Source: Thermoplasmata archaeon
GTDB lineage: Archaea > Thermoplasmatota > Thermoplasmata > Lutacidiplasmatales > UBA184
Reading direction: 5' to 3'
DNA length: 64,000 nt
Assembly: GCA_049300255.1 (NCBI GenBank)
Contig: JBAQJJ010000031.1
Coordinates: 20,647 to 84,646 of the forward strand
Made by a program: the position numbers and the translations under genes. The notes below the pieces were generated by a model. It was not told the origin of the DNA, made no database searches, and was given only the letters and a program-made list of their open reading frames with translations. Shown here piece after piece: positions 48,328 through 57,187 of this stretch (position 1 is the stretch's first letter; each line of letters opens with the position of its first letter).

Positions 48328-48394
48328 GGAACTCGTAGATGAATCTATCGAAAAAGTGGACGGTATTCGAACCCATGGGCGGTTCAAATCCCCA
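48328..48394 (+). repeat. B repeat, copy 1 (ggaactcgtagatgaatctatcgaaaaagtggacggtattcgaacccatgggcggttcaaatcccc)
   Basis: Near-identical copy at 52328..52395 and a diverged copy at 56490..56545. Ends with a hairpin plus a partial tRNA-Leu 3' core. Confidence 0.7.
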
Positions 48395-48832
48395 GGTCGA
48401 CTCGGTGTAAACTGGGGATCTACTTTCAAGCCGACTTGAGCGATGATGGAAACGAGTCCAACCCCTGACTACGCCACTCCTCTCATGTTCGGTCACACAG
48501 GCGGTTGAAATATCGAAATCGAGAATGTCCTGAGGAACAGGGACTGTAACTCGACGACGGGAAGGTTCCAAGGAGTGAGTTTTGAGCTGATGCTCGCCTT
48601 CGGCAGGAATCGTGAGCCTGCACCGAAACGGCGCGTATAGGCTGGTCTTAGTGATCAGGTTCCATATCTCTCGATGCGTGACCAGTGACGTCGAATGGTC
48701 GGCACTCGCATCGGCCTCGGGCTGCATCGCTCGCCTCTGATCTGAGCCCCGTCCTAAGACCCTCCTTGAGCCGCCCCATAATTTCAGCGCGTCTTACCCA
48801 AATCGATTCGCCATCATGCCTGGGAGATTCAC

Positions 48833-51100
48833 TTGACGCGTAGTCCACGACATTTCGATTCGATGTGGCCGGCGATCCCAACGATTGCAGTAGTTCTGAT
48901 CGCCGTAGCTGCCTGGTCCTTTGCCCCCAGTATCGTTTCTAAATCCGCTGCCGATAGTCCGAACTCTGCAGCCAATTCCCACCCCTCGCTCGATTCAGGG
49001 ACCACCAATGTACTGCCGACCGTCGTCCAAGTGGTGAATTTCACCATCACCCAGAATACTTCCGGCGATACGGGTCCCTTTGATGTGGCTCCGTCCGACA
49101 CTCTGGTCGTCTTCGTTGAACTCTTTGGGAAGACTACTGTCAACAATGTGACAATCGAAAACGGACCAAATGATACGTTTGTCCAGGAGGCGTATCTCCT
49201 GGACTACGTGAACGGCGGAACGCACGGATTCTCGGTGTGGGCATGCGCAAATGTGGATGGAGGACCTAGCACCGACGTTAATGTTACGCTGACGGGGGGC
49301 ACAACGGACAGTGCGGCAATCGAAGTCGTCGATGTGAATGGTGGGAATCCCTATGGCGGAAATCCAATCCCATTTGTGGACCAAGTCGCTGACATTACTA
49401 AGGGAATCAGTAAAACACCCAATGAGGGACTGACGGTACATGCCGACGATGTCGCCCTGTTGGGAATCGGAACGTGGAGCTGGAACAACGTTACCACTTC
49501 CGCTCCCCGGCAAGTGCTCGATCAACTAACGACCAACTCCACCGTGAGCGGAACGAATGTCACGAGCGCAGTGATTTCTTACTCAAATGACAACGCGACG
49601 TCAGAGGCGATAACGATGAACGGGACTTTGAGTGCAAGTGCTCCGTGGATTGTGGACATCATCACTATTGGTGCAATCGATTACACCGCGACGTACCAAG
49701 TGAGCTTCACGGAAACTGGATTGAGTACGGGTACCATGTGGTGCCAAGACTTACAGGGCGAAGGGTCGACGCAATGTGAAACTGCTGGAAGCGGATCTAC
49801 GTGGGACTTGCAGAACGGGATATACGTGTGGAACATCAGTGTCGAGGGAAGCGGGGTTTACGATGTCAGTCCGGAATCTTCCGGGTTGGTGACCGTTCAG
49901 GGTGCGAATGTCTGGCTGAACTCCACCTTTTCTGATCCCTCTGGCACGCACTTTATCCAACATGTCGTTGTAATAGTGCTTGAGAACGAGGCGGCTTCGT
50001 ACGTAAGCGCCGAAGGCGCGTACGAGAACACACTCGCCAGCACCTACGAGGGTTCCTCCCAGTTCTTTGCCGCGTGCCACCCCTCAGCTCCTGAATACAT
50101 GGCAATTATCGCGGCCGATACAAATTCCTGTCAGAATCCGGGCAGCGGGATAGGGGACGCTTATCCTACGTCAGGCGGTGGCACGTATCATTCATACAAG
50201 GAAGAAACAATAGGCGACACCCTAACCGCCAGCGGCTTTACCTGGGCAAACTATGCGGAGAATTTGCCGGGCGGTGGAGTGGCCTGTACCGATCCATCAA
50301 AGTGGGCTGTCCCAGGTAACAGCAGCCTATTCGCCGGCAAGCACGTCCCTTTTCTCTACATGGATAGTACGGTAGATGTCAAGTCGACTTGCGAGAGTCA
50401 TATTCTGAGCCTCGAACCTGGGCCGGGAATATCCAATGCATTCAACACTTCAGTTGTCGATAATGAAATGGTCAACTTTTCGTTCATCTCACCGAACCTG
50501 TGTGACGATGGCCATGACGGATGCAACGGAGTTTGGCCAAACGCAACTTGTCTAAAGACGAATTGCGGCGGGACTTACGATGACGTTCAAGAGGTTAAGG
50601 ATCAGGCGGACCTTTGGCTGAAACTGTTCCTTACCCCCCTGCTCGCTTGCACCGGAAGTCAATACGATAAGAACTCAAATGTACAGAGTATCTGCAAGAC
50701 GGAGATTAAGCACACCGCGATCTTCGTTTTGTATGACGAGACCGGAGGGGAGAATCCCGCCGGAAAGAGCGGCAAGAGTGATCTTGGATTCCAAGTGACT
50801 GAACCGACGAATCAGAATTATGTAAGTTGCCACCCCAGAGCTGGCAATCCGAGCGTTTGTGGCGGCCAGATATACGAGGTCACGATTATTCACAATTCCG
50901 CATACGCTGGCACATCTACTGGCGCGACAGCCTACAAGACTATGAACTCTGACTACGGAATCACCGCAACTATAGAGTGGCTATTCGGCCTTTCGCATTT
51001 TTGTTCCGTGGAGCCGTCCGGCTTTAGCAACCCGGGGTGCCTCGATCAGTATTATCCTGCCATGACCTCTGACTTCGGGTTCACAAACAACGGTTACTGA
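48833..51100 (+). CDS. secreted two-domain protein: N-terminal Ig-like/glycosylated domain plus C-terminal phosphoesterase (phospholipase C / acid phosphatase AcpA family)
   Basis: Signal/TM IPTIAVVLIAVAAWSFA. C-terminal HVVVIVLENEAASYV...CHPSAPEYMAIIAADTN resembles the phosphoesterase-family motifs. Dense N-x-T/S sequons. Confidence 0.55.
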   Translation: MTRSPRHFDSMWPAIPTIAVVLIAVAAWSFAPSIVSKSAADSPNSAANSHPSLDSGTTNVLPTVVQVVNFTITQNTSGDTGPFDVAPSDTLVVFVELFGKTTVNNVTIENGPNDTFVQEAYLLDYVNGGTHGFSVWACANVDGGPSTDVNVTLTGGTTDSAAIEVVDVNGGNPYGGNPIPFVDQVADITKGISKTPNEGLTVHADDVALLGIGTWSWNNVTTSAPRQVLDQLTTNSTVSGTNVTSAVISYSNDNATSEAITMNGTLSASAPWIVDIITIGAIDYTATYQVSFTETGLSTGTMWCQDLQGEGSTQCETAGSGSTWDLQNGIYVWNISVEGSGVYDVSPESSGLVTVQGANVWLNSTFSDPSGTHFIQHVVVIVLENEAASYVSAEGAYENTLASTYEGSSQFFAACHPSAPEYMAIIAADTNSCQNPGSGIGDAYPTSGGGTYHSYKEETIGDTLTASGFTWANYAENLPGGGVACTDPSKWAVPGNSSLFAGKHVPFLYMDSTVDVKSTCESHILSLEPGPGISNAFNTSVVDNEMVNFSFISPNLCDDGHDGCNGVWPNATCLKTNCGGTYDDVQEVKDQADLWLKLFLTPLLACTGSQYDKNSNVQSICKTEIKHTAIFVLYDETGGENPAGKSGKSDLGFQVTEPTNQNYVSCHPRAGNPSVCGGQIYEVTIIHNSAYAGTSTGATAYKTMNSDYGITATIEWLFGLSHFCSVEPSGFSNPGCLDQYYPAMTSDFGFTNNGY

Positions 51101-51102
51101 AA

Positions 51103-55175: not shown

Positions 55176-55190
55176 GTAATAATATAGATT
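55176..55190 (-). promoter_or_regulatory. TATA-like box ~25-35 nt upstream of the RHH start (leaderless-type promoter)
   Basis: Plus strand ggtaataatatagat, i.e. minus-strand atctatattattacc upstream of the ATG at 55155. Confidence 0.35.
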
Positions 55191-55511
55191 ACTATGTGCG
55201 TGCCTGAGAGAGATTCGGCAACGGAAGAGTGTGCCGAGCGAAATCCTTCCTCTCGGGGATATGAAGAGTTCAGAAGTGTCCCCCTCCGACATCTATCGCC
55301 GATTTGTCGCCGAGAAACGACGAGGTTCGAGCATTTGTGTGGAGAGGATTTGAACCCTCAACGGCCCTTCCTGAAAGGGTCGTTTTCTCTTGGACCCCCT
55401 CGCGGCTCTGAATCGTGAGGATGGAGTTGAGGGGCGGTGGGTTGTCGGGGTTGAGGGACAGACTCTTTGGGTGGAGTGGAGTCGAGCCGGAGGAGCGCAT
55501 CGAAGGGCCGG

Positions 55512-55985
55512 TTAGCTCGGCTGAGTTTCCCTGGCCGCTGGGGCGGCAGAGGGAGCGGAGAGCATGCGACGGTTCCTACTCAAGGCTAGAATTCCCATCG
55601 TGGCAAAAAGCGCCACGATGAACATCACTCCCATTCCGAACGAGTAAATCGGATTGTTCGGTGTGGAGCGTTCGAACGCAGATCCAAACTCTCCAGCGAC
55701 GAACACCGCTACGGGTAGCACCGCCGCCAGGCAAATCAGCCGGAGGTCACGGGAGAGGCCCGCCAGGATGAGAATAACGACCCCTACGAGAAAGAGGAGG
55801 AACCCGACCAAAACATGATACACCAAAGACCCTGGCTGAGTGGACATTCCCGAACTGTTTAGTACGAACTGCGCCGGCGCGTAGACGTTGGTCCAAATTC
55901 CCAATAGGTACTGCGCGATCAGTAGAAAGATCTCAACGACCGCGACCCTCTCTACAAGTCGAGTCCATCGGTTAGATCCAGCCAC
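55512..55985 (-). CDS. hypothetical 4-TM membrane protein
   Basis: 157 aa. GTG start. Confidence 0.4.
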   Translation of the reverse strand: MAGSNRWTRLVERVAVVEIFLLIAQYLLGIWTNVYAPAQFVLNSSGMSTQPGSLVYHVLVGFLLFLVGVVILILAGLSRDLRLICLAAVLPVAVFVAGEFGSAFERSTPNNPIYSFGMGVMFIVALFATMGILALSRNRRMLSAPSAAPAARETQPS

Positions 55986-57187
55986 AATCGTGCTTCAATC
56001 GAGGGAGGAGTAAGTATCCTCGGTACGAACTCGACTGAAGCTCGGGGCGCTAGACTAGTCGGCCGACTAGACCGTCCGTACTTTGCACCAACGGGGGTCT
56101 GTGAGCGTTGCCGGACGCCATACCGTAAGGACGTCGCGGAGCGGAGTGGGTTTTGAGAAGGTGGGGTCACTTCTGGACCTCAAGGGTATATTCTGCCGGC
56201 TTCGTGGGTTGTGTTCAATTCGAACCACAGGCGCTGAGCGCGTGCTCGAAATCGTCCAGAACAGGCGCTTTGTGCGACGGGAGTTGATCGTCCACGGTTC
56301 GGACCAATTTCTAACGACGGGGTTGCGTAGGGTGGGTTCCGGTCGACCTTCCGGCCCCATGTCGGGGACATGGTGAATTCAGTAGTGTCCCCCTCCGACA
56401 TTTTACGCCGGCATCGCCCCGAGACACGGCGACGTTTTCTCACTCACCTGTAAGATTCGAACCATGGAGGGTTCGAATACCTCGCCCACACGGAACTCGT
56501 AGAACAACCTATCGAGAAAGTGACTGAGATTCGAACACATGGCCGGTTCAAATCCGCCTCTCCGCACGAGCTATTCGTAGCGATAGGCTTCCGGCGTACG
56601 TCTCAAGGGTGGCAGTCGCTCACGGCGTGGACTCTATTTTCTTGACCTTTCGATCCGCGGCACCCAAAGCGCGGTCGTCCTCTTCTACTTTGATCTTATC
56701 CGAGACGCGGCCGGTCTCGCTGACTTTGTTATCGGCCTGTTCCCACCGCGGCGGCCTCCGCTCTCTCTTGGTTTGCCACCTCGAGACGCCTGGCTTCGTC
56801 GGTCACGGCTCAGCCTCGAGCCTGAGCAGCCTGAGAAGCACGATCGCGGGATTCTTCCACATCGATGACTTCGGCCGTCACTTTTGATGAACGAACGCTC
56901 TGCAGAAACAGTCACCCTGTGATCCCGCACCCGGCGGAGAATCGAACCGTCTTACGACGCTCGAATGCGAACGTCTCCGCCCGTTGAGTCGACGGATCAT
57001 CGAGGTGGCGTTCGATGCCCGCTCGTATTCGTCGAGGGAGGTCGGGCCAATCCGGCCGAACACCGGACCCCGGACGATCGTTCGACGCCGGGTCGGTCGC
57101 GACTTGTCGCTCATGATTCGTTCCGCTCGTAGGGGCGCTTAGCCTTCGCCACTCATCTCTTGCGGTGGCGTCCGAGCCGACGGCAGG

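What the first reader, a model, noticed from the sequence alone, without database searches (positions are those of the whole stretch)
48365..56554. Family of 25-28 bp palindromic hairpins built around the tRNA T-arm sequence (ATTYGAACC-N6-7-GGTTCRAAT), at least 8 copies in 8 kb
Copies are at about 48365-48390, 52290-52314 (perfect 9-bp arms with loop CCCGGGC), 52366-52390, 54489-54513, 54532-54559, 54577-54604, 56455-56478 (perfect arms with loop ATGGAG) and 56529-56554. The right arm is the canonical archaeal T-stem-loop GGTTCAAATCC. The left arm is its reverse complement, which a tRNA does not normally contain. The geometry (9-bp inverted arms around a 6-7 bp spacer) resembles recombinase core sites such as dif/XerA or integron-like sites more than terminators. 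The motif co-localises strictly with the att-like copies. It may be the recombination or binding site of the missing recombinase, or a T-arm-mimicking structural RNA element.
Basis: seen in the sequence. Interest (0 to 1): 0.7.

Follow-up and report, generated by a model that had tools for sequence, protein, structure and literature searches.

The report
T-arm palindromes bordering archaeal gene cassettes
These 25-base palindromes mark the joints where small foreign gene cassettes were spliced one after another beside a leucine tRNA gene of a soil archaeon, and they look like docking sites for a recombination enzyme encoded elsewhere, a layout I found no description of.

Summary
Eight copies of ATTYGAACC-N6/7-GGTTCRAAT lie at 48365-56553, none lie elsewhere in the 64 kb, and shuffles give none. 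They sit in an 8.3-kb low-GC island directly after tRNA-Leu(CAG). Two related species share the island's flanks but hold different DNA there; homology to one stops 4 nt before the first palindrome and resumes 33 nt after the last. The right half of each palindrome is a tRNA T-stem/T-loop running into a 13-nt tRNA 3' end. The left half is its mirror image and is absent from tRNAs. The same sites recur in 34 soil Thermoplasmata loci, beside tRNA-Leu(CAG) or tRNA-Met(CAT) wherever a tRNA gene was found. There, 41 of 42 extra tRNA-3'-end copies carry the left arm. A 0.65-kb toxin-antitoxin cassette occurs in eight contexts, six with the same layout between such sites. Two 99.8%-identical strains diverge at the centre of a palindrome, where one has an intact tRNA-Met. 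The arms do not covary and only 3 of 8 copies fold as hairpins, so an RNA role is unlikely. No recombinase was found near any array. Best reading: cassette-borne att sites used by a recombinase acting in trans, a new variant of tRNA-targeted integration with integron-like traits.

The parts
48242..48326 (+). tRNA-Leu(CAG) gene, the anchor of the array. Its T loop + 3' end (48305-48326, GGTTCAAATCCCTCTCCCCGCA) is the sequence copied at the att-like sites.
   Evidence: ARAGORN; Rfam 44.9 bits. Near-identical genes precede the arrays in L043, L063, L068, L072, L082, L089, L096, L112 and L130.
48327..48364 (+). 38-nt native spacer downstream of the tRNA ('S38'), duplicated together with the tRNA 3' end at 52328-52365 and, more diverged, at 56491-56528.
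   Evidence: Present after tRNA-Leu in relative L123 (10973-11005), which lacks the island. 89-nt repeat family D1 at 48305-48393, 52306-52394 (93%) and 56469-56557 (72%).
48365..48402 (+). Palindrome 1 (ATTCGAACC CATGGGC GGTTCAAAT) + 13-nt 3'-end-like tail. Left border of the island.
   Evidence: Homology to L123 ends at 48360.
48403..52289 (+). Cassette A: phosphoesterase-family secreted protein (49031-51100) and a 340-aa protein (51103-52125). GC 0.52-0.56.
   Evidence: Pfam PF04185; gene calls in L120; composition.
52290..52327 (+). Palindrome 2 (ATTTGAACC CCCGGGC GGTTCAAAT) + an exact copy of the tRNA-Leu 3' end. attR/attP-like joint.
   Evidence: The same 38-nt unit with unrelated left flanks occurs in L030, L043, L063, L068, L086, L107, L129-L132 and others.
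52366..52403 (+). Palindrome 3 (ATTCGAACC CATGGAC CGTTCAAAT) + tRNA-Met-type 3' end (CCCCGCTCCGACA), followed by a copy of the native tRNA-Met downstream flank.
   Evidence: (D6, D7).
52404..54488 (-). Cassette B: a 437-495-aa membrane-anchored/secreted protein (52561-53874/54048, minus strand), plus a degraded D4-type site at 54326-54375.
   Evidence: (no Pfam hit).
54489..54525 (+). Palindrome 4 (identical to palindrome 2) + tRNA-Leu 3' end with a 1-nt deletion.
   Evidence: D3, 93% identical over 54 nt to 52270-52323.
54533..54570 (+). Palindrome 5, degraded (T-ATTGAACC CATGGTG GGGTCGAAT) + 13-nt tail CCTTGCTTCCGCC. A gene-less mini-unit.
   Evidence: 3 mismatches.
54577..54614 (+). Palindrome 6 (ATTCGAACC CTCGAGC GATTCAAAT) + tRNA-Met 3' end CCCCCCTCCGACA + tRNA-Met flank.
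54615..55251 (-). Cassette C: ParE toxin (54665-54907) and DUF7557 antitoxin (54919-55155). This mobile TA cassette is found in 8 contexts.
   Evidence: Pfam; contexts.
55252..55301 (+). D4-type site: a second palindromic att type (GGGGATATGAAGAGTTCAGAAGTGTCCCC + CTCCGACA) without a T-loop arm.
   Evidence: D4, D5. It is the only junction type in the arrays of L133 and L135.
55302..56360 (-). Cassette D: a 157-aa membrane protein (55512-55985).
56361..56410 (+). D4-type site, third copy.
56455..56490 (+). Palindrome 7 (ATTCGAACC ATGGAG GGTTCGAAT, perfect arms, 6-nt spacer) + tail ACCTCGCCCACA.
   Evidence: best hairpin of the set (z -3.2).
56529..56566 (+). Palindrome 8 (ATTCGAACA CATGGCC GGTTCAAAT) + Leu-like 3' end CCGCCTCTCCGCA. 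Right border of the island.
   Evidence: Homology to L123 resumes at 56599.

Best explanation
The palindromes are double-stranded-DNA recombination (att) sites that delimit small gene cassettes lacking a recombinase gene. The cassettes were inserted serially at the T arm / 3' end of tRNA-Leu(CAG), and in sister arrays at tRNA-Met(CAT). Each site has two halves. The right half is the target tRNA's T-stem 5' strand + T loop (12 nt), followed by the tRNA's last 13 nt and often some native downstream flank. The left half is a cassette-borne inverted copy of that 12-mer. The site is therefore a dyad whose axis lies at the 5' edge of the T stem.

Inferred mechanism: a dimeric site-specific recombinase, most likely a tyrosine recombinase encoded elsewhere in the genome or on a helper element, binds the two GGTTCRAAT(CC) half-sites of the cassette's site. 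It exchanges strands with a T arm, either the tRNA gene itself or an existing site, at or just 3' of the dyad. The tRNA 3' end is regenerated from the cassette's copy, and the displaced original ends up behind the left arm as a palindrome (attR). Repeated insertions push older cassettes outward and build the array.

Shown: the anatomy of the sites, their position at every joint and at both island borders, cassette modularity across genomes, and a strain-level breakpoint at the dyad. Inferred: the enzyme class, its action in trans, and the exact cleavage positions.
For: (1) Eight copies confined to 48365-56553, with 0 expected by chance.
(2) The interval is a compositional island, GC 0.52-0.58 against 0.63-0.65 outside.
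(3) Related species L123/L125 and L126 (DNA 83-89% identical) share both flanks but carry other DNA there. Homology to L123 breaks at 48360 and resumes at 56599, bracketing the first and last palindromes.
(4) A GTDB scan returned 34 Thermoplasmata loci among 118 rows. Every tRNA gene detected in these loci, in 14 of the 34, is tRNA-Leu(CAG) or an intron-bearing tRNA-Met(CAT).
(5) 41 of 42 non-tRNA copies of the Leu/Met T-loop + 13 nt carry the left arm.
(6) Information content falls to about 0 outside GG + arm + spacer + arm + 13 nt, so the unit is conserved and its flanks are not. The spacer, which the search did not constrain, holds 0.8-1.4 bits.
(7) The DUF7557/ParE cassette occurs in 8 contexts at both tRNA loci, 6 of them with the layout [T loop + 13 nt]-TA-[palindrome + 13 nt]. 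L130 is a minimal case: tRNA-Leu, a 0.7-kb cassette, then a palindrome with a perfect 22-nt repeat.
(8) Strains L139 and L140 are 99.8% identical up to the centre of palindrome L139 17708-17732. At that point L140 has an intact tRNA-Met, and the shared sequence begins with the T-stem GGGGG.
(9) The left arm and spacer are inherited with cassette lineages, e.g. ttcgggATTCGAACCgccgggc in L130 and L068.
(10) Tyrosine recombinases generally need dyad-symmetric substrates, and archaeal integrases favour tRNA 3' ends (review PMC8371274).
Against: No recombinase gene was found in the island or in 10-kb flanks of six further array contexts. It was not found in the window gaps I read, nor among the 10 or so Pfam families matched by at least three of 133 ORFs from the 34 loci; families matched by fewer ORFs were not all listed. 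The enzyme is therefore hypothetical.

The tRNA genes lack any left-arm equivalent, and the 7 nt left of GGTTC differ between tRNA and site (GTTCGTG against SCCGGGC). A classical exchange inside the spacer with the tRNA as partner would therefore meet heterology.

A fully symmetric centre gives no obvious polarity. The relatives' alternative inserts (L123 MarR-MFS) are not bounded by recognisable palindromes. All loci except L120-L126 and L133-L146 were ascertained through the palindrome itself. T-arm palindromes also follow tRNA-Arg genes in two DPANN MAGs amid housekeeping genes, so another, more general role near tRNA genes is not excluded.
Confidence: 0.72

Rival explanations
1. Host XerA (dif-type) hijacking. 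The palindromes mimic the chromosome's dif site, and the cassettes behave like IMEX elements or Acinetobacter pdif modules, moved by the housekeeping resolvase.
For: With the frequent flanking GG/CC the geometry is 11-7-11, close to dif's 11-6-11 (review text). The cassettes encode no recombinase. XerA can integrate DNA in vitro and binds stem-loop att sites weakly.
Against: dif is single-copy near the replication terminus, whereas these sites are tied to two tRNA genes and contain tRNA sequence. The spacer is 7 nt, not 6, and is often fully symmetric. The lineage's real dif could not be obtained for comparison. pdif modules have sites in alternating orientation; here all sites point the same way relative to the 13-nt tail.
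Confidence: 0.1
2. Decayed scars of ordinary integrase-bearing elements. Normal tRNA-targeting proviruses or plasmids integrated in tandem, then lost their integrase and most genes. The palindrome is just the attP core of that element family, and the cassettes are no longer mobile.
For: The regenerated tRNA plus displaced 3'-fragment repeats are the textbook signature. Degraded sites and gene-less mini-units exist at 54533 and at about 52237. IS elements have invaded some arrays.
Against: No integrase remnant was seen in any of the Thermoplasmata array loci held, roughly 400 kb in all. Very small single-function units such as the 0.65-kb TA cassette recur intact with their own site in 8 contexts and at two different tRNA loci. 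Near-identical strains differ by cassette content at a site, which indicates recent activity.
Confidence: 0.12
3. Single-strand hairpin elements. The palindromes act as RNA or ssDNA hairpins, either as terminator/processing signals for the tRNA and cassette transcripts or as IS200/IS605-, REP- or attC-like folded sites recognised by an HUH or IntI-type enzyme.
For: Three copies fold well (z -1.6 to -3.2). Spacers extend the dyad. One palindrome lies 38 nt after the tRNA and another 13 nt before a cassette end, reminiscent of IS608 end hairpins.
Against: Five of 8 copies do not fold as the hairpin (z about 0). The one variable arm position does not covary (12 T/A, 3 C/G, 22 mixed, in both orientations). 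There is no T-run after the hairpins. No Y1 transposase or IntI is nearby. The copies are not dispersed. The site is too short for the attC R''-L''/L'-R' architecture.
Confidence: 0.04
4. No dedicated function. The motif is a by-product of tRNA pseudogene duplication and homologous recombination among T-arm-like repeats.
For: The right arm is ordinary tRNA sequence. Long (89-nt) repeats could support homologous exchange.
Against: The left arm is not tRNA sequence, yet it is present in 41 of 42 extra copies and conserved across many species while the flanks are not. None of the copies is a recognisable tRNA.
Confidence: 0.02

Closest known systems
tRNA-gene attachment sites of tyrosine-integrase islands (Williams 2002 T-loop / 3'-end sublocations; Islander-type islands; archaeal integrases reviewed in PMC8371274)
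   Same: An intact tRNA gene at one end. A displaced direct repeat of the tRNA 3' part (22 nt or more, extending into native flank) at the far end of each insert. Foreign base composition. The identity block starts at the T stem.
   Different: No integrase in or beside the inserts. The inserts are 0.65-4 kb units of one or two genes. The element-side half of the site is a precise inverted copy of the T-stem/T-loop 12-mer, a feature I found in none of the papers searched.
Tycheposon-seeded genomic islands of Prochlorococcus (Hackl et al., bioRxiv 10.1101/2020.12.28.424599)
   Same: Islands anchored at particular tRNA genes (including a tRNA-Met), built by successive integrations that push older elements outward. 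Partial tRNAs are scattered through the island, and the cargo is adaptive.
   Different: Tycheposons are defined by their own tyrosine recombinase and replication module. No palindromic att site is described for them ('palindrom' occurs 0 times in the text). Bacterial, not archaeal.
Integron cassette arrays, including CALINs (attC clusters lacking an integrase)
   Same: Arrays of short, mostly single-gene cassettes, each ending in an imperfect palindrome. TA modules are among the cargo. The recombinase is not inside the cassettes.
   Different: No IntI or attI platform. The sites are 25-38 nt and built from tRNA sequence, not 57-141-nt attC with R/L boxes and extrahelical bases. Cassette genes point both ways and carry their own promoters. 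The anchor is a tRNA gene.
Xer/dif exploiters (IMEX) and Acinetobacter pdif modules
   Same: Recombinase-less modules bounded by palindromic sites of about 28 bp with a 6-8-bp centre, moved by an enzyme supplied in trans.
   Different: The sites contain tRNA sequence and are tied to tRNA genes, not to dif. All have one orientation. Similarity to the lineage's dif was not tested.
IS200/IS605 end hairpins, PATEs and REP/BIME repeats
   Same: Short GC-rich palindromes, sometimes in alternating tandem units.
   Different: Not dispersed (two loci per genome as far as seen). No Y1 transposase. Hairpin stability is not conserved. Direct repeats of 22 nt or more flank the inserts.

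Membership tests
tRNA-targeting integrative island (tyrosine-integrase type) | Intact, regenerated tRNA gene at one island end | tested here: met
   tRNA-Leu(CAG) at 48242-48326, found by ARAGORN and Rfam.
tRNA-targeting integrative island (tyrosine-integrase type) | Displaced direct-repeat copy of the tRNA 3' fragment at the distal end | tested here: met
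   52306-52327 is an exact 22-nt copy and 54505-54525 has a 1-nt deletion. A perfect 22-nt repeat flanks the L130 cassette.
tRNA-targeting integrative island (tyrosine-integrase type) | Integrase gene inside the island, next to an att site | tested here: not met
   No recombinase family in a Pfam scan of the six longest island ORFs and three flanking ORFs. A box-II regex and phmmer with an integrase seed gave no plausible hit. Neighbour Pfam lists of L120-L146 contain no Phage_integrase.
tRNA-targeting integrative island (tyrosine-integrase type) | Insert absent or different at the same site in relatives; foreign composition | tested here: met
   L123, L125 and L126 have the same flanks but different content. 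GC drops to 0.52-0.58.
Integron / attC array | intI gene and attI adjacent to the array | tested here: not met
   Upstream genes are GlnA, AsnC and DeoC aldolase; downstream is EamA. No integrase was found.
Integron / attC array | attC architecture: R''-L''...L'-R' boxes (RYYYAAC/GTTRRRY), 57-141 nt, extrahelical bases | tested here: not met
   The site is a simple 25-nt dyad. TTYGAAC/GTTCRAA match the R boxes at only 5 of 7 positions (read from the sequence). No attC covariance model was available.
Integron / attC array | Short cassettes, each with one recombination site, in a tandem array | tested here: met
   Cassettes of 0.65-3.9 kb lie between sites in the window. 5-10 cassettes per array in L133-L141.
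Xer/dif site or pdif module | 28-bp site, 11-bp arms, 6-bp centre | tested here: inconclusive
   9-7-9 strictly; 11-7-11 when the flanking GG/CC are counted; many are 12-1-12.
Xer/dif site or pdif module | Sequence similarity to the host's own dif | not testable with these tools
   The dif of this lineage is unknown. The T. acidophilum dif paper is not held, and the reviews give no sequence.
IS200/IS605-type or REP hairpin element | Y1 (HUH) transposase or RAYT associated; many dispersed copies | tested here: not met
   All 8 window copies lie in one 8-kb island. No Y1_Tnp appears among the 25 families listed for the 133 ORFs. Only sporadic TnpB-like genes occur.
Casposon ends | Cas1 casposase, terminal inverted repeats abutting a 14-15-bp target duplication on both sides | tested here: not met
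   No Cas1. The left end has 38 nt (or 5-8 nt) between the tRNA end and the palindrome, while the right end has 0. The terminal 40 nt are not inverted repeats of each other.
Structured RNA / tRNA-like element | Base pairs maintained by covariation; a recognisable family model | tested here: not met
   There is no covariation at the single variable pair. 5 of 8 copies have z about 0. Rfam at E<=10 finds only the true tRNA.

The most novel reading that the evidence does not exclude
Soil Thermoplasmata (Lutacidiplasmatales-like lineages) possess an integron-like gene-capture system unrelated to bacterial integrons. Recombinase-less cassettes, each carrying a palindromic site built by mirroring part of a tRNA 3' half, are shuffled among arrays anchored at tRNA-Leu(CAG) and tRNA-Met(CAT). 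There are two site types: the T-arm type described here and a second 'D4' type that mirrors the acceptor strand. A single chromosomally encoded recombinase acting in trans would do the shuffling. T-arm palindromes right after tRNA-Arg genes in DPANN MAGs hint that the principle may be wider in Archaea.
Probability: 0.3. Interest if true: 0.85.

Novelty: new variant of a known kind. Interest (0 to 1): 0.62.

Why it matters
Integration at tRNA genes is classical. What is unusual here is an att site whose element-side half is an exact mirror of the tRNA T arm, combined with arrays of tiny cassettes that carry no recombinase of their own. If a trans-acting enzyme moves them, this is a compact gene-capture platform in an abundant but uncultured soil archaeal order. 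It would explain strain-level variation in surface proteins, signalling cyclases, transporters and TA modules. It would also provide a defined 25-38-bp site for finding the enzyme and for building genetic tools for Thermoplasmatota. Practically, these sites break short-read assemblies, so they mark regions where MAGs are systematically incomplete.

Tried and rejected
(1) SSV-type split integrase. I translated all six frames across each site and found no ORF reading through. Rejected.

(2) Casposon TIR/TSD. The geometry fails: the distances between tRNA end and palindrome are asymmetric, the termini are not inverted repeats, and there is no Cas1.

(3) DDE transposon or MITE with GGTTCRAAT terminal repeats and 7-bp target duplications. 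The 7-mers on the two sides of each putative element differ (CATGGGC/CCCGGGC and others). Rejected.

(4) De novo palindromic footprints from hairpin opening at each insertion. The left arm and spacer are inherited with cassette lineages, and they differ from the adjacent right arm even where the flanking 22-nt repeats are perfect (L130). Rejected.

(5) Minihelix or tRNA-like RNA. An upstream GCGGGG complementary to the acceptor strand exists only at 52268 and not at other copies. Rejected.

(6) Search for a linked recombinase. The following were negative, apart from one implausible regex match (L037): a box-II regex, phmmer with an actinobacterial integrase seed, Pfam on 133 + 20 ORFs, and 10-kb flanks of six array contexts.

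(7) Viral contigs. Three scans gave one chance hit in an AT-rich phage and one unrelated actinobacterial prophage at a bacterial tRNA-Leu.

(8) Metagenome scan with the 37-nt Leu-type site. It gave only 5 short loci, useful mainly for the minimal TA cassette in L130.

(9) Getting an archaeal dif sequence from the literature failed.

(10) The roughly 45 Streptococcus parasanguinis-group hits in the genome scan are one conserved AT-rich hairpin locus and are unrelated.

Full report
**1. The observation**

The window (62.8% GC) contains six copies of ATTYGAACC-N7-GGTTCRAAT with at most one mismatch, at 48365, 52290, 52366, 54489, 54577 and 56529. There is also a perfect 9-6-9 copy at 56455 and a degraded copy at 54533. 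None lies elsewhere in the 64 kb. One hundred dinucleotide-preserving shuffles gave no match at all.

The sequence shows three further things.
- Every right arm runs into 12-13 pyrimidine-rich nucleotides with the length of a T-stem 3' strand + acceptor 3' strand + discriminator.
- Two of these tails are copies of the 3' end of the tRNA-Leu(CAG) gene at 48242-48326.
- Two tails (at 52391 and 54602) are copies of the 3' end of a tRNA-Met(CAT), and further copies of that end lie in the D4-type sites at about 55280 and 56390 (see section 6). Each is followed by the native downstream flank of that tRNA-Met gene. I identified this by finding the intron-bearing tRNA-Met gene in related genomes.

**2. 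Where the copies sit**

The copies lie in an 8.3-kb stretch that starts 38 nt after tRNA-Leu. Its GC content is 0.52-0.58, against 0.63-0.65 on both sides.

The aldolase gene upstream of the tRNA let me fetch the same locus from relatives.
- L120 is the same strain as the window. Its short-read contig ends at window position 56450, just before palindrome 7.
- L123/L125 and L126 are related species (aldolase 97% identical, DNA 83-89%). They have the same flanks: GlnA, AsnC, aldolase and tRNA-Leu on one side, and EamA, Fe-ADH and PhoU on the other.
- Between those flanks L123 carries MarR + MFS, and L126 carries almost nothing.

BLASTN homology between the window and L123 stops at 48360, 4 nt before the first palindrome. 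It resumes at 56599, 33 nt after the last palindrome's 13-nt tail. The palindromes therefore mark both island borders and every internal joint.

The units between them are:
- a phosphoesterase-family protein plus a 340-aa protein;
- a 437-495-aa secreted protein;
- a ParE/DUF7557 toxin-antitoxin pair;
- a 157-aa membrane protein;
- several gene-less mini-units.

**3. Beyond this genome**

About 45 are a single conserved AT-rich hairpin locus of the Streptococcus parasanguinis group and are unrelated. Thirty-four are soil or peat Thermoplasmata MAGs, including Candidatus Lutacidiplasma silvani.

In the 14 of those 34 loci where a tRNA gene was detected, it is either tRNA-Leu(CAG) or the intron-bearing tRNA-Met(CAT). 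The palindrome follows the tRNA after 5-8 nt, after a 38-55-nt native spacer, or after one or more cassettes.

I oriented 62 N7 sites by their pyrimidine-rich tail.
- Information content is about 0 in the far flanks.
- It is 0.7-0.9 bits at a GG just left of the left arm.
- It is 0.8-1.4 bits across the spacer, which the search did not constrain (consensus ccCGGGg).
- It is 0.4-1.5 bits across the 13-nt tail.

The unit is therefore conserved while its surroundings are not.

Of 42 non-tRNA copies of the Leu or Met T loop + 13 nt (up to 3 mismatches), 41 have the left arm at the right spacing. This excludes the reading that these are plain tRNA-fragment duplications. One caveat applies: most of these loci were found through the palindrome itself.

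**4. Anatomy**

In the Met-type sites the palindrome reads ATTTGAA-CCCCC-G-GGGGG-TTCGAAT. The right half is the tRNA's T-stem 5' strand + T loop. The left half is its reverse complement. The dyad axis lies at the 5' edge of the T stem.

The Leu type has the same design: ATTTGAACCGCC-G-GGCGGTTCAAAT, against GTGGGTTCAAAT in the tRNA.

The one variable arm position (Y/R) does not covary. Among the strict sites in Thermoplasmata loci, 12 are T/A, 3 are C/G and 22 are TTCGAA/TTCAAA hybrids, and the hybrids occur in either orientation relative to the tail.

Only 3 of the 8 window copies fold as the hairpin as single-stranded DNA (z -1.6 to -3.2). The rest have z about 0. Rfam at E<=10 recognises only the true tRNA. 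No T-run follows the palindromes. Together these points favour a double-stranded DNA site with two independently constrained half-sites over an RNA or ssDNA hairpin.

**5. Evidence that the sites are recombination joints**

(a) *Mosaic flanks.* The same left module (native spacer S38 + left arm + CAYGGSC) is joined to different right modules in the window, L086, L096, L112 and L072. The same 38-nt Leu-type unit has unrelated left flanks in more than ten MAGs.

(b) *A modular cassette.* The 0.65-kb DUF7557/ParE cassette occurs in eight contexts, at both tRNA-Leu and tRNA-Met arrays: the window, L057, L065, L009, L076, L063, L068 and L130.
- In six of them the layout is identical: [T loop + 13 nt] - promoter - antitoxin - toxin - [left arm - spacer - T loop + 13 nt].
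- L130 is the minimal case. It has tRNA-Leu, a 0.7-kb TA cassette, then ATTCGAACC GCCGGGC GGTTCAAAT CCCTCTCCCCGCA, a perfect 22-nt repeat of the tRNA end.
- The left arm and spacer go with the cassette lineage, e.g. ttcgggATTCGAACCgccgggc in L130 and L068. The arm is therefore inherited, not made afresh at each insertion.

(c) *A strain-level polymorphism.* L139 and L140 are 99.8% identical over 17.7 kb, and the homology ends at the centre of palindrome L139 17708-17732. At that position L140 has the intact tRNA-Met gene. The shared sequence is GGGGG-TTCAAAT-CCCCCCTCCGACA plus the native flank. In L139 the palindrome is thus the distal (attR-type) junction of an insertion of at least 5.2 kb into the tRNA-Met T arm. 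The identity block starts at the dyad.

(d) *Assembly breaks.* Short-read contigs repeatedly end at these repeats (L120, L121, L124, L144).

**6. What is missing: the enzyme**

I found no recombinase.
- Pfam on the six longest island ORFs and three flanking ORFs found none. ORF lists of two window gaps that my GC3-based gene finder left uncalled (21.3-23.7 kb and 36.7-39.5 kb) showed no integrase-like ORF by eye.
- A tyrosine-recombinase box-II regex (one implausible match, in L037) and phmmer with a bona fide integrase seed (no hit) found nothing in the 34 loci or the window.
- Pfam on 133 ORFs from the 34 loci listed no recombinase. Only the 25 most frequent of 118 matched families are reported, so this covers every family matched by three or more ORFs and little more. 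The most frequent cargo is adenylate/guanylate cyclase (8 ORFs). Others are MBL hydrolases, Zn-ADH, TetR, aquaporin, ABC transporters and Kelch/PKD surface proteins.
- 10-kb flanks of six further array contexts, reached through the antitoxin, list 5-10 cassettes each. They show IS66, DDE_3 or TnpB insertions but no integrase.
- Viral-contig scans found nothing relevant.

The arrays of L133 and L135 use only a second site type, here called D4: GGGGATATGAAGAATTCAGTAGTGTCCCC + CTCCGACA + tRNA-Met flank. Its left arm mirrors the acceptor 3' strand in place of the T loop. Three D4 copies are in the window, at 54326, 55252 and 56361. L139 and L141 (99.9% identical) diverge at the edge of a D4 site. 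The common principle is a palindrome whose right arm is part of a tRNA 3' half.

**7. Most likely mechanism**

The data fit site-specific integration at the T arm / 3' end of two tRNA genes, with the classic signature of a regenerated tRNA and a displaced 3' fragment (Islander logic; archaeal review).

The new element is that the cassette's own site supplies a perfect inverted half-site. The tRNA 3' end lacks extended dyad symmetry (only the 5-bp T stem), while tyrosine recombinases generally need dyad-symmetric substrates. A cassette-borne mirror arm would give a dimer two equal half-sites (GGTTCRAAT, often GGTTCRAATCC) on the donor. The tRNA would then offer a weaker, half-site-only target.

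The crossover must lie in the block shared by tRNA and site, that is, from the dyad rightwards. It cannot lie in the left part of the 'spacer', which differs from the tRNA (GTTCGTG against SCCGGGC), unless the enzyme tolerates heterology.

Where the tRNA keeps a T loop and position 61 that differ from the neighbouring sites (L065: TTCAAAT-C in the tRNA, TTCGAAT-A in the sites), later cassettes probably entered at an existing palindrome and not in the tRNA itself.

The enzyme class, its action in trans and the cleavage positions are inferences.

**8. Rivals**

- XerA/dif hijacking is attractive because the modules lack a recombinase and the geometry is roughly right. It predicts a single terminus-linked site with no tRNA sequence, and I could not obtain a dif sequence to compare.
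- 'Dead scars of ordinary proviruses' fits the degraded copies. It does not fit the absence of any integrase remnant, the recurrence of intact sub-kilobase cassettes at two tRNA loci, or the strain-level differences.
- Hairpin-based systems (terminators, IS200/IS605, REP, attC) fail on covariation, folding, copy distribution and associated genes.
- Pure pseudogene duplication fails on the conserved non-tRNA arm.

**9. Comparison with known systems, and novelty**

The closest analogue in function is the tRNA-anchored island built by successive integrations, as in Prochlorococcus tycheposons. The closest in organisation are integron/CALIN arrays and pdif modules.

The locus meets the defining features of a tRNA-targeted island except for the integrase. 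It fails the defining features of integrons, dif sites (one feature inconclusive, one untestable), casposons and HUH elements.

I found no description of T-arm-mirroring att sites, or of such cassette arrays in Thermoplasmatota, in the literature searches. I rate it a new variant of a known kind. There is roughly a 30% chance that it is a genuine trans-mobilised, integron-like capture system in Archaea.

Noticed in passing
window 54326-54375, 55252-55301, 56361-56410; L133 6622, 9866, 10583, 12730; L135 9865, 10583; L139 9863, 15003: A second palindromic junction type ('D4'): GGGGAYATGAAGAATTCAGTAGTGTCCCC + CTCCGACA + the tRNA-Met downstream flank. Its left arm mirrors the acceptor 3' strand in place of the T loop. 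It is the only junction type in some tRNA-Met arrays, and L139 and L141 (99.9% identical) diverge at the edge of one.
   Followed up: partly
L091 3581-3790; L023 6660-6780; L036 5100-5400: T-arm palindromes also lie 3-7 nt after tRNA-Arg genes in Pacearchaeota and Woesearchaeota MAGs, amid housekeeping genes (RadA, NDK, arginine decarboxylase). In L091 a second T loop is separated from a second copy of the tRNA 3' end by a 50-nt insert. L036 shows an 88-nt tandem repeat containing the palindrome.
   Followed up: partly
L002, L057, L076, L082, L087, L114, L133, L135, L139, L140: Adenylate/guanylate-cyclase proteins, often fused to AAA/TPR or alpha/beta-hydrolase domains, are the most frequent cargo of these arrays (8 of 133 ORFs). 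They occur at both the tRNA-Leu and the tRNA-Met loci.
   Followed up: partly
L135 10617-12113 and 14799-16325; L140 12412-13545; L133 15902-16606: IS66-family and DDE_3 transposases lie inside some tRNA-Met arrays, and a TnpB-like (Cas12f1-like_TNB) gene lies just beyond the tRNA-Met/S3Ae end of another. The DDE_3 insertion is a strain difference: present in L140, absent in L139.
   Followed up: no
L120 end (= window 56450); L121 and L124 ends (just after the aldolase/tRNA-Leu); L144 end (about window 54.5 kb): Short-read contigs of this population end at or close to the palindrome/tRNA-fragment repeats. These arrays are probably under-represented or split in MAGs.
   Followed up: no
window 48290-48326 and the tRNA-Leu genes in L043, L063, L068, L072, L089, L096: The tRNA-Leu(CAG) T stem has a conserved U50.U64 mismatch (GTGGG/CCCTC). 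Only L082 (GAGGG) and L112 (GGGGG) pair fully.
   Followed up: no
L001, L003-L005, L008 and about 40 further Streptococcus loci: A perfectly conserved AT-flanked hairpin, ATTCGAACCCTYWRAGGGTTCGAAT, lies at one syntenic locus of the Streptococcus parasanguinis group and appears in both orientations. It looks like a bidirectional terminator and is unrelated to the archaeal sites.
   Followed up: no
window 21447-23732: A 761-aa secreted, membrane-anchored repeat protein that my GC3-based gene filter did not call; the filter also missed the island's cargo genes. The stretch holds an isolated GGTTCRAAT (21923) and an isolated ATTYGAAC (22126) about 200 nt apart, but no palindrome.
   Followed up: no
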